This document shows, one piece after another, positions 18,415 through 21,541 of a DNA stretch of 29,106 bases. This DNA comes from Pseudomonadales bacterium (lineage in GTDB: Bacteria > Pseudomonadota > Gammaproteobacteria > Pseudomonadales > JAXHSS01): contig JBPEWS010000130.1 of assembly GCA_052032465.1 (NCBI GenBank), positions 1 through 29,106 on the forward strand, written 5' to 3'. Every line of letters begins with the position of its first letter. Within the stretch, counting starts at the first letter, position 1. Both the position numbers and the translations under genes were made by a program. The notes under the pieces are model-generated. The model was given only the letters and a program-made list of their open reading frames with translations. It was not told the DNA's origin and searched no databases.

Positions 18415-19830
18415 ATGAAACGAATTCAACAATTATTGATCGCCGCTACGATAGCAACTGCCACATTATTAACCACAGCCCACGCAGGACTTCGAGATAA
18501 TACACCCGATTACGAAAAAATAGCCGAAGAAGGTTTTGCCTACGGCTTCCCGTTAGTACTCATGGATGTGACCAAAGAAGGCTCAACCGGAGCTGAACCC
18601 ACCTGCGGTTTTGCTGCGCCTTTAAACAGCTTCTTACATGTTAAAGATATTCCGAATCATGAGTTCAGAGCGGTGGTTCGCCCTAATGTAGACACCCTCT
18701 ATTCAAGCGCTTTTTTAGACCTATCTGAAGGCCCATTAACTTTGGCGCTTCCCGGCGTTGCTGACCGCTATATTTTAATGGCCTTTCTTGATGCCTGGTC
18801 GAACAACTTCGCAGGCCTTGGAACACCAACAAATAATGAAGAGCCTGGCGCTTATTTTATTACAGGCCCAAATTGGAAAGGCAAAGTACCACGTGGTTAT
18901 AGTCACATCAGCTCTCCAACAAATACGGCTTGGATTATTGGACGAACAGAAATCAAACACGCCAATGATTTAGCAAACGTTAACCAACTTCAAGATCTCT
19001 ACCAGCTAGAGCCTTATGATCGCAGCCGCACGCTAGATACACTGCCCGACTGTGTTGATGTTGAAGACAAGATTGCACCACCTGATGAGGTGTTGTCGAT
19101 GAATTCAATCGCCTTTTTTAAGCGCTTATCTCGACTAATGATACAAAACCCGCCGCCTTCAGCAGATAAAGCGATTTTAGAAGAGTTAAAGCTAATTGGT
19201 GTTGGTGCATCCATTAAAAACCCGCTAGAAACACTTTCTCAAGAAATTCGCCAAGCTGTAGCAAACGGGGTTGAAAAAGCCATCAATAAAGCCAAGCTCA
19301 GCCTTTCACAACTGGGCCGCCGAGCGGATTGGTCTCCAAACCCTAGCCTTGTTCCACTAGGAGACTATGGCACGGACTATGGCATTCGCTACCTAGTTGC
19401 CCTTGAAGGCTTTGGCGCTAATCGCGGCGAATATGCGGTATATCAAAATGCAGGCCAAGACAGTAACCAAGAGGCATTATCTGGAGAGCACAGCTATTCA
19501 CTGACATTCAGTGCTGGTGAGCTTCCACCTGCTGATGCATTTTGGTCGGTGACGGTTTATGACAAAGAGGGTTATTTGGTTGAAAACACTGAGCAGCGCT
19601 ATGCCGCTGGCAGCAACTCATCCATGGCGCTAAACGCTGATGGCTCATTAACCATTTATTTTGCCAAGACCCAGCCTGAACAAGCGCCTGATAACAACTG
19701 GGTGCCAACACCCGAGGGCGAATTTGGCCTGACATTGCGCCTTTATTCACCACAAGAAAGCGTTTTAAACGGTGATTGGCAAGCGCCCGGCATTGAGAAA
19801 TTAGGAAGCGAAAAGCGCCGCTTCCGTTAG
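18415..19830 (+). CDS. exported DUF1254/DUF1214 domain protein
   Basis: Sec/SPI signal (MKRIQQLLIAATIATATLLTTAHA), VVRPNVDTLYSSAFLDLS-x-GP, Y-x-LMAFLDAWSNNFA, WIIGRT, LPPADAFWSVTVYD and F-x-LTLRLYSP. Confidence 0.92.
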   Translation: MKRIQQLLIAATIATATLLTTAHAGLRDNTPDYEKIAEEGFAYGFPLVLMDVTKEGSTGAEPTCGFAAPLNSFLHVKDIPNHEFRAVVRPNVDTLYSSAFLDLSEGPLTLALPGVADRYILMAFLDAWSNNFAGLGTPTNNEEPGAYFITGPNWKGKVPRGYSHISSPTNTAWIIGRTEIKHANDLANVNQLQDLYQLEPYDRSRTLDTLPDCVDVEDKIAPPDEVLSMNSIAFFKRLSRLMIQNPPPSADKAILEELKLIGVGASIKNPLETLSQEIRQAVANGVEKAINKAKLSLSQLGRRADWSPNPSLVPLGDYGTDYGIRYLVALEGFGANRGEYAVYQNAGQDSNQEALSGEHSYSLTFSAGELPPADAFWSVTVYDKEGYLVENTEQRYAAGSNSSMALNADGSLTIYFAKTQPEQAPDNNWVPTPEGEFGLTLRLYSPQESVLNGDWQAPGIEKLGSEKRRFR

Positions 19831-19848
19831 AAAGGTTAACCTCCTACT

Positions 19849-19894
19849 AGCCGCTGTCAGCTCATCTGAATTGGGCAAGCAGCGGCTTTTTTTT
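19849..19894 (+). terminator. intrinsic terminator of the DUF1254 gene
   Basis: AGCCGCTG...CAGCGGCT outer stem, inner GCTCA/TGGGC stem with a G-U pair, then a run of 8 T. Confidence 0.75.
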
Positions 19895-19904
19895 CAAGCT
19901 TTTA

Positions 19905-20016
19905 TTGCCTCTTCCTGACAACTAGGTGGCTAAGCCACTTATGGCTACAGAACATAGCTTTAACTATATCCCGGGAAGATGGCGAGTATCTAGGCGATAC
20001 TCGCCATTAGTTTTTT
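19905..20016 (+). ncRNA. candidate structured small RNA or intergenic repeat element
   Basis: Closing stem TCTTCCTG/CGGGAAGA encloses two hairpins and is followed by a 12-bp hairpin and a T tract. G-U pairs favour the plus strand. No Rfam family recognised. Confidence 0.3.
19979..20016 (+). terminator. strong hairpin with plus-strand T tract
   Basis: Perfect 12-bp stem ATGGCGAGTATC-TAGGC-GATACTCGCCAT followed by TAGTTTTTT. No U tract on the minus strand. Confidence 0.6.
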
Positions 20017-20020
20017 ATAA

Positions 20021-20938
20021 TTATTGAGGCAAGTACTGATATTGAGAATACCAATTCTCATTGACATGGTCTTGATGCTTATCGCCATTAAGATAAGCCT
20101 CGGCCTCAAAATCACTTTTCAGGTAAGTTTCCAGCACCGCTGTAACGATGGTTTTAAAGCGCGTTTTTTGATCTGCCGAGCCACCCAAATACCAGTCACC
20201 GTGACTTGCACCAGCAAACATGGCCAAGAGCTTAGTTTGTTCAGCTGGTAAACGGTTGTAATAACGCGTCACGTCTTGAGGATAAGCGAGATTGTCATTT
20301 TCACTGCCTAATACAAAGGTGGGTTTTTGAATATTCTCAAAAGCTACATTATTCTCAAGGTCGCCCAACCAAGGTGCTAAGGCAATCGCAGTGGCTTGTT
20401 GGTTTTGCAACTGTGCGGCTGCTAATAGTGTTCCGCCACCGCCCATTGAAAAGCCCATGATATTTCGCTTATCAAGGTCAACCAAACCATAAATAGGACT
20501 TGCCGCTCGAGCATGCTCACTGGCCAGCTTATTAAAGCCTGCCACATGTGCTTTTTGCCAAGTATCAGGCTGCGCATAAATATTGGTTGGCGTCATAGCA
20601 AAAACAATATATCCGTGGGATGTTAAATGATCTGCTAGCCAATACATATCTTCTTTGGTGTTGGTCCAACCGCCAGTCAATGTTGTAGCTGGCAAAGTCT
20701 CACCTGATAACTCACAAGGGTATGAAACACGCGCAGAGGCATAGCCCGAATCACGAAGGTTGTTACTATAAGTGCAAAGCGAATATTCTCCTTGAGCCCC
20801 TAGGCCTTCTGCTGAAGGATCAGGTTGATCGGGCTCATCACCACCACCGCAAGCCTGCAATAAAACCACTGCACTCAGCGCGATCAGCTGTTTAGCACGT
20901 TTGGCCAAGTGCTCAGACATCAAATTCATATTCATCAT
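20021..20938 (-). CDS. lipoprotein alpha/beta hydrolase of the polyesterase-lipase-cutinase (PETase-like) family
   Basis: Lipobox LQAC30; GGWT oxyanion loop; L-x-SHGY; SPIYGLVD...MGFSMGGGGTL; APW; PTFVLGSEND; GASH. Triad Ser164-Asp215-His246. The true start may be Met2 (20935), judging by the spacing from the GGGGG SD. Confidence 0.88.
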   Translation of the reverse strand: MMNMNLMSEHLAKRAKQLIALSAVVLLQACGGGDEPDQPDPSAEGLGAQGEYSLCTYSNNLRDSGYASARVSYPCELSGETLPATTLTGGWTNTKEDMYWLADHLTSHGYIVFAMTPTNIYAQPDTWQKAHVAGFNKLASEHARAASPIYGLVDLDKRNIMGFSMGGGGTLLAAAQLQNQQATAIALAPWLGDLENNVAFENIQKPTFVLGSENDNLAYPQDVTRYYNRLPAEQTKLLAMFAGASHGDWYLGGSADQKTRFKTIVTAVLETYLKSDFEAEAYLNGDKHQDHVNENWYSQYQYLPQ

Positions 20939-21071
20939 TTACCCCCTTAGTTCATTTTGTTATGCGATGCAGACTAACTGAAACAACTCGTTAACACTGT
21001 TTAGGTTTTGTGTAAAACCGCTGCCGAAAACTGACTAAGTACGAGCGACAAAACAAAAAGTGAGCACAAGG

Positions 21072-21088
21072 AAGTGGTAAGACCAACT
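21072..21088. promoter_or_regulatory. GntR/FadR-subfamily (PdhR/GlcC/LldR-type) operator candidate
   Basis: AAGTGGTAAGACCAACT matches the E. coli PdhR operator AATTGGTAAGACCAATT at 15/17 positions. Intergenic, 134-150 nt upstream of the hydrolase. Confidence 0.55.
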
Positions 21089-21133
21089 GAAACTTGGCGG
21101 TAATCCATCACCACCGTGTAAGGCTTTTTGAGG

Positions 21134-21541
21134 TTAAAGCTGAGTTCTTCTTGCTTGTTGAACCTGCTGCATCGTGATATCCACCCCTGATTTAATCGAA
21201 ACCGCCTCGGCAATTCGTTCATCGGTAAGCTCACCTTCTATTTGCACCCAATTGCCTTGAGCAGAGTGAGGCGTTGTACCATCATTATGCTGAATATCGG
21301 CCGAGCCACTCGGTAAATAAATGGTCCCATTGCTGAAATCTACCGCAAAGGCAATCACGCCAGGGATCAGGAAAAACAATAATCCAATAGCATCTAACAC
21401 AACCACACCAGCATCCAGCTCCCCATCAATTTGGCCTTTTCGCTCAGGATACAAGATCGTGCCGCAAGAGGCCGTATTCACAAGCAATGCAGCGATGACT
21501 AAGCGCACCGAAAGCGACTTTAAACGTTTAATTACCAACAT
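21134..21541 (-). CDS. conserved hypothetical lipoprotein
   Basis: Signal peptide with TASC lipobox, CGTILYPERKGQ and hydrophobic LDAIGLLFFLIPGVIAFAVDF-x-NGTIYLP; GAGGAG SD upstream. Confidence 0.75.
   Translation of the reverse strand: MLVIKRLKSLSVRLVIAALLVNTASCGTILYPERKGQIDGELDAGVVVLDAIGLLFFLIPGVIAFAVDFSNGTIYLPSGSADIQHNDGTTPHSAQGNWVQIEGELTDERIAEAVSIKSGVDITMQQVQQARRTQL

What the first reader, a model, noticed from the sequence alone, without database searches (positions are those of the whole stretch)
20021..20938. Membrane-anchored PETase/cutinase-family hydrolase
Seen: motif-by-motif correspondence with Ideonella PETase (IsPETase sequence recalled from memory): GGWTNT vs PGYTAR, LTSHGYIV vs LASHGFVV, AQP vs DQP, SPIYGLVD vs SPIYGKVD, MGFSMGGGGTL vs MGWSMGGGGSL, APW vs APW, PTFVLGSEND vs PTLIFACEND, GASH vs GGSH. 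The triad is Ser164-Asp215-His246, and Met165 and Trp190 (IsPETase Met161 and Trp185) are retained. Unlike the typically secreted enzymes, it has a lipobox (LQAC30), Gly at +2 (outer-membrane sorting) and an acidic/Pro tether (GGGDEPDQPDP). Inference: a cell-surface-tethered polyester or lipid hydrolase from a probably marine, acetyl-CoA-oriented bacterium. The natural substrate is unknown; PET activity is not established.
Basis: partly seen in the sequence, partly recalled or inferred. Interest (0 to 1): 0.8.

Follow-up and report, generated by a model that had tools for sequence, protein, structure and literature searches.

The report
Lipid-anchored PETase-like esterase gene
This is an intact gene for a plastic-degrading-type (PETase/cutinase-family) esterase that, unlike the well-studied secreted enzymes, carries a lipoprotein signal that should tether it to the cell envelope; the enzyme family is well known, but the lipid anchor, which turns out to be common in this branch of the family, has hardly been discussed.

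Summary
The ORF lies on the minus strand (20021-20938, 305 aa). It scores 115 bits on Pfam PF12740 (PETase; cut-off 28). Ser164, Asp215 and His246 are invariant in 35 relatives. The closest solved structure is GlacPETase (8x6v): 45% identity, TM 0.97 to a pLDDT-93 model. IsPETase and cutinases follow.

The protein fits none of PETase types I, IIa, IIb or III. It has no C-terminal or active-site disulfide, an invariant N-terminal Cys55/Cys75 pair, Phe163 and Gly247, and no M5 motif.

The lipobox LLQA|C30 is not chance. The protein sits in a well-supported clade where 44 of 47 members keep a lipobox. Of the 44 best 50%-identity clusters, 29 have one. The genome encodes LspA, Lgt, LolA, LolB and a type II secretin.

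Strain variants are mostly synonymous (21:8). A sister species has lost about 0.7 kb of the gene.

Which face of which membrane the enzyme occupies, its substrate and any PET activity remain untested. Gly at +2 does not settle sorting.

Verdict: a new, divergent member of a known family, with an under-reported lipid-anchored form. Moderate interest.

The parts
20021..20938 (-). Complete CDS, 305 codons plus TAA stop: PETase-like (PF12740) serine hydrolase precursor
20942..20948 (-). Shine-Dalgarno-like AAGGGGG, 3 nt before ATG1 and 6 nt before ATG2 (Met2 is the likelier start)
   Evidence: The public gene call P0002 starts at Met2.
20852..20938 (-). Signal peptide, residues 1-29: n-region with K13, R14 and K16, h-region LIALSAVVLL, lipobox L-L-Q-A
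   Evidence: Read from the sequence. It fits the PROSITE PS51257-type pattern used.
20849..20851 (-). Cys30 codon: predicted lipidated N-terminal Cys of the mature protein
   Evidence: Cys kept in 44 of 47 clade members
20816..20848 (-). Short Gly/acidic/Pro tether, residues 31-41 (GGGDEPDQPDP), low model confidence
   Evidence: pLDDT below 50 at residues 31-33; blocks 21-40 score 64-69. In one search the common PETase N-terminus starts aligning at about residue 38.
20024..20815 (-). Catalytic alpha/beta-hydrolase domain, residues 42-305
20774..20776 (-). Cys55 codon: first half of the invariant N-terminal Cys pair (inferred disulfide with Cys75)
   Evidence: invariant; aligned with a GlacPETase Cys
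20714..20716 (-). Cys75 codon: second half of the invariant N-terminal Cys pair
20447..20449 (-). Ser164 codon: nucleophile in G-F-S-M-G
20294..20296 (-). Asp215 codon: catalytic acid
20201..20203 (-). His246 codon: catalytic base
19978..20008 (.). 13-bp-stem hairpin just past the stop codon, between the two convergent genes: terminator-like
   Evidence: consensus scan only

Best explanation
The ORF is a functional gene for a lipoprotein form of a PETase-like (cutinase-like, lid-less) Ser-Asp-His carboxylic-ester hydrolase of the GlacPETase branch of PF12740.

Proposed mechanism. The precursor is exported by Sec. Lgt adds a diacylglycerol to Cys30, or Cys29 if Met2 is the start. LspA cuts after LLQA. 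The acylated enzyme stays in the envelope on a tether of about 10 residues, most likely moved to the outer membrane by LolA/LolB and possibly displayed on the cell surface. There Ser164, activated by His246 and Asp215, attacks ester bonds of hydrophobic, polymeric or lipid substrates. The oxyanion hole uses Met165 and the Trp91 backbone, and the aromatic clamp is Trp91/Trp190. Products are released next to the cell's own uptake systems instead of diffusing away.

Shown here: family, fold, an intact triad, lipobox conservation, machinery present, purifying selection.

Inferred: acylation, outer-membrane or surface location, substrate class.
For: Family and fold:
- PF12740 scores 115 bits against a cut-off of 28.
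- GlacPETase 8x6v gives E=1.2e-71 and 45% identity over 262 aa.
- The AF2 model has pLDDT 93. Foldseek gives TM 0.97 to 8x6v and 0.85-0.88 to IsPETase and Rhizobacter PETase. The top Swiss-Prot fold hits are IsPETase, Thermobifida cutinases and LCC.
- The triad and GxSMGGGG are invariant, and the motifs are in register with 8d1d.

Real gene:
- It has an SD sequence.
- GC and GC3 are like the flanks.
- Strain variants from two other studies are 21 synonymous to 8 non-synonymous.

Lipoprotein:
- The lipobox fits the PROSITE-type pattern.
- 58 of 117 full-length homologues have one.
- On a tree built from the mature domain only, the window protein lies in a 97* clade with 33 of 34 lipobox rows, inside a 95* clade with 44 of 47. 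One of the three exceptions has a lipobox with Cys at -4. The trait needs only 5-6 changes on the tree, against a mean of 37 in shuffles.
- 29 of the 44 best 50%-identity representatives have a lipobox.
- Cultured Thalassolituus maritimus strains carry such genes.
- The genome has LspA, Lgt, LolA and LolB, plus a GspD secretin above cut-off.

Precedent for surface lipoprotein lipases that feed the cell: VolA of Vibrio cholerae (PMC3656444).
Against: No experiment exists on this protein or on any lipobox-clade member. The only characterised close relative, GlacPETase, belongs to the signal-peptidase-I clade. Surface exposure is not predictable from sequence. By my recollection of the E. coli +2-rule work (Seydel, Gounon and Pugsley 1999), Gly or Phe at +2 can even favour inner-membrane retention of model lipoproteins, and the sorting rules differ in Pseudomonas-like bacteria. 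The protein lacks the M5 motif that one study ties to PET activity, although PET-active GlacPETase lacks it too. It has GGW where that scheme's M4 motif needs [PG]-G-[YF]. No conserved partner genes hint at a substrate. The gene is dispensable: the sister species has deleted it.
Confidence: 0.6

Rival explanations
1. [quoted passage not shown] It would act on small imported esters or oligomers, or on envelope lipids and lysolipids, as proposed for the lipoprotein MHETase. It would not be a surface depolymerase.
For: The default location of proteobacterial lipoproteins is the periplasmic face (discussion in PMC13533575). MHETase is a predicted outer-membrane lipoprotein acting in the periplasm (PMC7686037). 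The tether is short, about 10 residues. In Thalassolituus-type loci the homologues sit next to an MFS-acyltransferase fusion, which by my reading resembles the LplT/Aas lysophospholipid recycling protein. No Slam-type translocon was found, though that search was uninformative.
Against: The family's characterised members act on insoluble polyesters outside the cell and have an open, lid-less cleft. A type II secretin is present. Type II systems are known, from my memory of PulA and Shewanella MtrC/OmcA, to put lipoproteins on the surface. The MFS-acyltransferase neighbour is absent from this window and is seen only in one group of related genomes.
Confidence: 0.28
2. The Cys is incidental. The signal is cut by signal peptidase I (after LQA or nearby) and the enzyme is freely secreted like IsPETase or GlacPETase.
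For: Ala at -1 is compatible with signal-peptidase-I cleavage. Gln at -2 is an uncommon lipobox residue. The sister clade with GlacPETase has plain AxA-type signals.
Against: Cys at +1 with [AGS] at -1 is kept in 44 of 47 clade members although the n- and h-regions have diverged. By my recollection the PROSITE lipobox pattern allows Gln at -2, and LLQGC or LLQAC is the commonest form in the clade.
Confidence: 0.07
3. The gene is a decaying remnant on its way out of a streamlined genome and no longer makes an active enzyme.
For: It sits on a long terminal branch (0.67). The sister species has lost about 0.7 kb of it. The genome is small, 1.27 Mb.
Against: The frame is intact and all invariant family residues are present. 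The model is confident. Variants are mainly synonymous across strains from independent studies. An SD sequence is present.
Confidence: 0.04

Closest known systems
GlacPETase (PDB 8x6v; glacier Pseudomonas; Qi et al. 2023/2024, papers not held in the library)
   Same: Best sequence hit (E=1.2e-71, 45% identity) and best fold hit (TM 0.97). Same N-terminal Cys pair, no C-terminal disulfide, no M5 motif, SH-x-DW after the catalytic His, and G-F-S-M-G-G-G-G.
   Different: GlacPETase and its Pseudomonas clade have signal-peptidase-I signals, while this protein has a lipobox and belongs to the lipoprotein clade. It has Trp91 where GlacPETase has Phe, APW instead of APF, and a 2-residue insert at 197-198.
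IsPETase (Ideonella/Piscinibacter sakaiensis, type IIb PETase)
   Same: Same fold (TM about 0.86, about 26% identity). Triad, Met after Ser, and Trp190 at the IsPETase Trp185 position.
   Different: Neither IsPETase disulfide is present. Phe163 replaces Trp159 and Gly247 replaces Ser238 (IsPETase numbering from memory). It is secreted rather than lipid-anchored.
Type III PETases (HaloPETase1, PDB 9hl5; Ag0826)
   Same: Marine gammaproteobacterial PF12740 enzymes outside types I and II that lack the M5 motif. One study reports that they group with GlacPETase (PMC13234336).
   Different: Their defining disulfides C64-C126 and C273-C276 (PMC12442448) cannot form here, because the only mature-domain Cys are 55 and 75. 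They have Sec/SPI signals.
VolA, outer-surface lipoprotein lysophospholipase of Vibrio cholerae (PMC3656444)
   Same: A works-like analogue: a lipid-anchored esterase of a marine gammaproteobacterium that frees fatty acids at the cell surface for uptake.
   Different: No evidence of shared family membership, and no fadL-type neighbour in this window.
LCPH1, predicted outer-membrane lipoprotein family-VIII polyesterase (PMC13533575)
   Same: A predicted lipoprotein polyester depolymerase. That paper argues that anchored 'ectoenzyme' depolymerases are under-recognised.
   Different: A different fold and catalytic type (Ser-Lys-Tyr, beta-lactamase-like) from a soil Acidobacteriales organism.

Membership tests
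Pfam PF12740 PETase-like / polyesterase-lipase-cutinase alpha/beta-hydrolases | HMM score above the curated cut-off | tested here: met
   115.2 bits against 28, E=4.6e-33, covering residues 39-286
Pfam PF12740 PETase-like / polyesterase-lipase-cutinase alpha/beta-hydrolases | Lid-less alpha/beta-hydrolase fold closest to PETases and cutinases | tested here: met
   Model pLDDT 93. The 50 PDB hits listed are PETases, cutinases or polyester hydrolases. The Swiss-Prot top 13 are IsPETase, cutinases, a BHET hydrolase and Moraxella lipase 1.
Pfam PF12740 PETase-like / polyesterase-lipase-cutinase alpha/beta-hydrolases | Ser (GxSxG)-Asp-His triad with Met after the Ser | tested here: met
   Ser164, Asp215 and His246 are invariant, and Met165 is present
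PETase types I / IIa / IIb (Joo et al. 2018 scheme as summarised in PMC12442448) | Conserved C-terminal disulfide (all types) and active-site disulfide (type II) | tested here: not met
   No Cys after residue 75, and no Cys in these alignment regions
PETase types I / IIa / IIb (Joo et al. 2018 scheme as summarised in PMC12442448) | Subsite II residues: Trp or His before the Ser, Ser or Phe after the His | tested here: not met
   Phe163 and Gly247. The reference residues are from memory.
Type III PETases (HaloPETase1 group) | Two disulfides at the HaloPETase1 positions C64-C126 and C273-C276 | tested here: not met
   The only mature-domain Cys are 55 and 75. Definition from PMC12442448.
M5-motif 'functional marine PETases' (Alam et al. 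2025, PMC12224614) | [PG]-G-[YF] clamp, Met after Ser, and C-terminal DxDxR(Y)xxFxC | tested here: not met
   GGW instead of [PG]-G-[YF]. Met165 is present. There is no C-terminal Cys and no such motif. GlacPETase also fails this test yet is reported PET-active.
GlacPETase-like branch of PF12740 | Invariant N-terminal Cys pair, no C-terminal disulfide, near-identical fold | tested here: met
   Cys55 and Cys75 invariant, TM 0.97, 45% identity
Bacterial lipoproteins (Sec/SPII) | Positively charged n-region, uncharged h-region, lipobox ending in [AGS]-Cys at position 15-35 | tested here: met
   K13, R14 and K16; LIALSAVVLL; LLQA|C30. The same pattern rule found this protein in a whole-genome scan.
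Bacterial lipoproteins (Sec/SPII) | Lipobox Cys conserved among orthologues | tested here: met
   44 of 47 in the clade, and 29 of 44 representative clusters
Bacterial lipoproteins (Sec/SPII) | Maturation and sorting machinery in the same genome | tested here: met
   LspA, Lgt, LolA and LolB all above cut-off
Bacterial lipoproteins (Sec/SPII) | Actual N-acyl-diacylglyceryl modification and membrane location | not testable with these tools
   Needs globomycin or palmitate labelling and cell fractionation. No SignalP or LipoP was available.
PET hydrolase, EC 3.1.1.101 | Release of MHET, BHET or TPA from PET | not testable with these tools
   Enzyme assay needed

The most novel reading that the evidence does not exclude
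The GlacPETase-like branch of the PETase family is, in nature, mainly a family of lipid-anchored cell-surface ectoenzymes. These would be put on the outer face by the type II system or a comparable route. This enzyme would then be a natural 'surface-displayed' polyesterase active on aliphatic polyesters and perhaps PET. It would follow that screens filtering for Sec/SPI signals have systematically missed a major natural mode of polyester depolymerisation in marine oil-degrading bacteria.
Probability: 0.25. Interest if true: 0.7.

Novelty: new variant of a known kind. Interest (0 to 1): 0.45.

Why it matters
PETase research and metagenome mining treat these enzymes as freely secreted. Several pipelines keep only Sec/SPI candidates or note Sec/SPII calls only in a supplementary table. 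A 2026 paper states that no extracellular plastic-depolymerising lipoprotein has been explicitly reported.

In the GlacPETase-like branch a lipobox is the majority state. It is also present in cultured Thalassolituus strains. If these enzymes are surface-tethered, this would be a natural counterpart of engineered PETase surface display. It would also bear on how free-living marine bacteria keep the products of polymer or lipid hydrolysis.

The enzyme itself is a divergent sequence, at most about 56% identical to anything in 5.8 billion proteins. It has an active-site make-up outside the current PETase types, so it has some value as a template for enzyme discovery.

Tried and rejected
- RNA evidence: no RNA holder was listed for the gene. 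One metatranscriptome run laid on the stretch gave nothing. This is not evidence either way.
- Conserved neighbourhood: clustering ORFs from 35 related loci found no neighbour shared with this window, so operon context gives no substrate clue.
- The upstream 135-aa ORF, the 126-aa and 159-aa membrane ORFs and the DUF1254/DUF1214 gene have no informative Pfam or NCBIfam family.
- Slam (PF04575) search of the genome: no hit, but the control genomes did not ring either, so it is uninformative.
- FadL (PF03349): only a short N-terminal match in a 131-codon open frame on contig C171, too weak to build on.
- Horizontal-transfer signal: GC and GC3 of the gene match the flanks, and the window is core chromosome with SMC, ZipA, LigA, PntAB and PBP2. 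I rejected the idea of a mobile island.
- A special CGGG class of lipoproteins in this genome: of 75 pattern hits in the genome-wide scan (candidates of mixed quality), only this protein has Cys followed by GGG.
- HaloPETase1/type III membership: rejected on the Cys positions.
- The GlacPETase papers could not be read because they are not held. What I say about its N-terminal disulfide rests on memory and on the aligned Cys.
- Papers on the +2 rule or on type II export of lipoproteins were not found in the library, so those points also rest on memory.
- Plastisphere-labelled metagenomes hold related strains at low depth. I do not count this as evidence of plastic degradation.

Full report
**1. 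Is it there?**

Yes. The ORF runs 20938 to 20021 on the minus strand: 305 codons plus TAA. An AAGGGGG Shine-Dalgarno sequence lies 3 nt before the first ATG and 6 nt before the second. Met2 is therefore probably the true start, as in the public gene call P0002.

Codon checks confirm Cys30, Ser164, Met165, Trp190, Asp215 and His246.

**2. What family?**

- Pfam PF12740 'PETase' scores 115 bits against a cut-off of 28. Other alpha/beta-hydrolase families score around or just above their cut-offs at most.
- Against the PDB, the best hit by far is GlacPETase 8x6v (E=1.2e-71). About 40 IsPETase variants and other PET hydrolases follow at 1e-26 to 1e-29.
- BLASTP identity to GlacPETase is 45% over 262 residues.
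- An AlphaFold2 model built on 35 homologues has mean pLDDT 93. Foldseek gives TM 0.97 (by target) to 8x6v and 0.85-0.88 to Rhizobacter PETase, IsPETase, Ple629 and PE-H.
- In Swiss-Prot models the order is IsPETase, Thermobifida cutinases, then LCC.

**3. Which kind of PETase-like enzyme?**

In the 35-sequence alignment the triad, the G-x-S-x-G-G-G-G block and two cysteines (Cys55, Cys75) are invariant. The mature protein has no other cysteine. It therefore cannot form:
- the C-terminal disulfide common to types I and II;
- the active-site disulfide of type II;
- the two disulfides that define type III (PMC12442448).

Before the nucleophile it has Phe163, where IsPETase has Trp. After the catalytic His it has Gly247. 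It has GGW where most PETases have [PG]-G-[YF]. It lacks the C-terminal DxDxR(Y)xxFxC part of the 'M5' motif (PMC12224614).

GlacPETase also lacks M5 and is reported PET-active (PMC13234336 and PMC12976661). M5 failure therefore lowers the odds of PET activity but does not exclude it. An earlier first-reader note on the same stretch (e1-5332715) made the same point about the active-site combination and the relocated Cys pair. My checks agree.

**4. The lipid anchor**

The N-terminus has basic residues (K13, R14, K16), an uncharged hydrophobic core and LLQA|C. This fits the PROSITE-type lipobox rule. By my recollection that rule allows Gln at -2.

The anchor is not a one-off:
- Among 117 full-length homologues from the 5.8-billion-protein search, 58 carry a lipobox. 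LLQGC|FGG and LLQAC|GGG are the commonest forms.
- I built a maximum-likelihood tree from the mature domain only, so the signal peptide could not influence it. The window protein sits on a long branch (0.67) inside a clade with 97% SH-aLRT support holding 33 lipobox rows of 34. That clade lies inside a 95% clade with 44 of 47.
- GlacPETase and the Pseudomonas sequences form the sister group with ordinary AxA signals.
- The trait needs only 5-6 changes on the tree, against about 37 in shuffles. Kin share labels, so this shows clustering and not independent origins.
- An exhaustive HMMER search of 1.84 billion 50%-identity representatives found only 41 clusters at E<=1e-30. Of the 44 best, 29 have a strict lipobox and several more have a relaxed one.

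So in this branch of the family the lipoprotein signal is the usual state.

Genomes that carry lipobox forms include cultured Thalassolituus maritimus strains and MAGs of Thalassolituus, Oceanobacter, Alcanivoracaceae, Moraxellaceae and Ketobacteraceae.

The window's own genome is 1.27 Mb in 275 contigs, 92% complete, 47% GC. It has a single PF12740 gene. It encodes LspA, Lgt, LolA and LolB, plus a GspD secretin above the curated cut-off.

**5. Is the gene alive?**

- Its GC and GC3 match its neighbours. The window is core chromosome, with SMC, ZipA, LigA, PntAB, chorismate synthase and PBP2.
- Contigs of related strains from two other studies cover the gene. The listed differences are 21 synonymous and 8 non-synonymous, which fits purifying selection.
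- The only other species of the genus in the genome set keeps the flanking genes in the same order. There, about 0.7 kb (roughly codons 6-240) is missing between two CAAA repeats, and an 8-bp deletion lies in what is left.

The gene was therefore in the common ancestor and is dispensable in at least one lineage.

**6. How it most likely works**

Shown: it is an intact, selected, PETase-fold serine esterase with a conserved lipobox, in a genome that can make and sort lipoproteins.

Inferred: Sec export, lipidation of the Cys, cleavage by LspA, and retention in the envelope on a tether of about 10 residues. Residues 31-41 have low model confidence, and the common PETase N-terminus starts aligning at about residue 38.

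Whether it ends up on the cell surface cannot be read from the sequence. From memory of the E. coli +2-rule work, Gly and Phe at +2 can favour inner-membrane retention of model lipoproteins. Such Lol avoidance is what lets the type II system take the lipoprotein PulA to the surface. The Shewanella surface cytochromes MtrC and OmcA, also type II dependent, begin Cys-Gly-Gly-Ser-Asp-Gly, which resembles Cys-Gly-Gly-Gly-Asp here. These are leads and not tests, and I could not find the papers in the library.

A surface lipoprotein lipase that feeds the cell has precedent in VolA of Vibrio cholerae (PMC3656444). The main rival is a periplasm-facing enzyme acting on small esters or envelope lipids, as proposed for the lipoprotein MHETase (PMC7686037).

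The substrate is unknown. Neighbours give no clue for this window. In relatives an AraC-type regulator is often adjacent. Thalassolituus-type loci have tandem paralogues followed by an MFS-acyltransferase fusion.

**7. Novelty**

The family is very well known, and the nearest characterised enzyme has a crystal structure. The sequence is divergent. No database protein is more than about 56% identical apart from its own record.

I found the lipid-anchored state noted only in passing. Two M5 PETases are listed as Sec/SPII in a supplementary table. Other screens selected Sec/SPI candidates only. A 2026 ISME J paper on an unrelated lipoprotein polyesterase states that no extracellular plastic-depolymerising lipoprotein had been explicitly reported, and that lipoboxes in PlasticDB enzymes had been overlooked (PMC13533575). 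My literature search covers open-access papers only.

I rate this a new variant of a known kind and of moderate interest. It would be higher if surface display and polyester activity were shown.

Noticed in passing
L083:1305-1895 (sister species G001), matching window 19831-21133: The congeneric genome keeps the flanking DUF1254/DUF1214, 135-aa lipoprotein-like and nitroreductase genes. The hydrolase gene there has lost about 0.7 kb (codons about 6-240) between CAAA microhomologies and carries a further 8-bp deletion: a clean pseudogene remnant.
   Followed up: yes
window 21134-21541 (-): A 135-aa ORF just upstream on the same strand has a lipobox-like NTAS|C and one hydrophobic segment, and no Pfam or NCBIfam family. 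It is conserved in the sister species even where the hydrolase is deleted.
   Followed up: partly
L002:5080-7974, L003:863-3747, L004:5090-7973: Thalassolituus/Oceanospirillaceae loci hold a tandem array of three PF12740 paralogues: one short SPI-type and two lipobox-type. In related loci an MFS_1+Acyltransferase fusion (LplT/Aas-like by my reading) lies downstream (L001:7381-9279).
   Followed up: partly
L008:4634-5758, L011:4959-5822 and about 17 other related loci: AraC-family regulators (two clusters, 11 and 8 loci) recur next to the hydrolase genes in relatives. None is next to the gene in this window.
   Followed up: partly
P0095-P0098, P0120, P0122, P0104: Long forms of 430-790 aa exist. 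Some have a lipobox, an N-terminal extra domain and the PETase-like domain at the C-terminus. One (P0104) carries ricin-type lectin domains (PF14200, PF00652).
   Followed up: no
P0108, P0109 (a Spirochaetes MAG is named for P0109): These homologues end in an odd Gly-rich tail with a C-terminal Cys (…GGGGCN / …GGGGGCSF). Its function is unknown.
   Followed up: no
L026, L028, L030, L033, L034; P0106, P0113, P0114: A second, deep-branching lipobox clade (Ketobacteraceae and unclassified Gammaproteobacteria) has a different conserved start of the mature protein, Cys-Lys-Asp-Ala-Pro-Pro-Glu-Gly-Pro.
   Followed up: no
window 20205 (codon 245): Related strains in two metagenome studies carry Ser245Asn, directly before the catalytic His246 (GASH to GANH).
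   Followed up: partly
whole genome G000: The genome is very small for a gammaproteobacterium-like organism with Lol and type II secretion: 1.27 Mb in 275 contigs at 92% estimated completeness, 47% GC. The sister species is about 1.9 Mb. The holders of the stretch are marine sediment metagenomes.
   Followed up: partly
window 18415-19830 (+): The convergent neighbour is a secreted DUF1254/DUF1214 protein of 471 aa with a signal peptide and unknown function. It is conserved next to the locus in the sister species.
   Followed up: no
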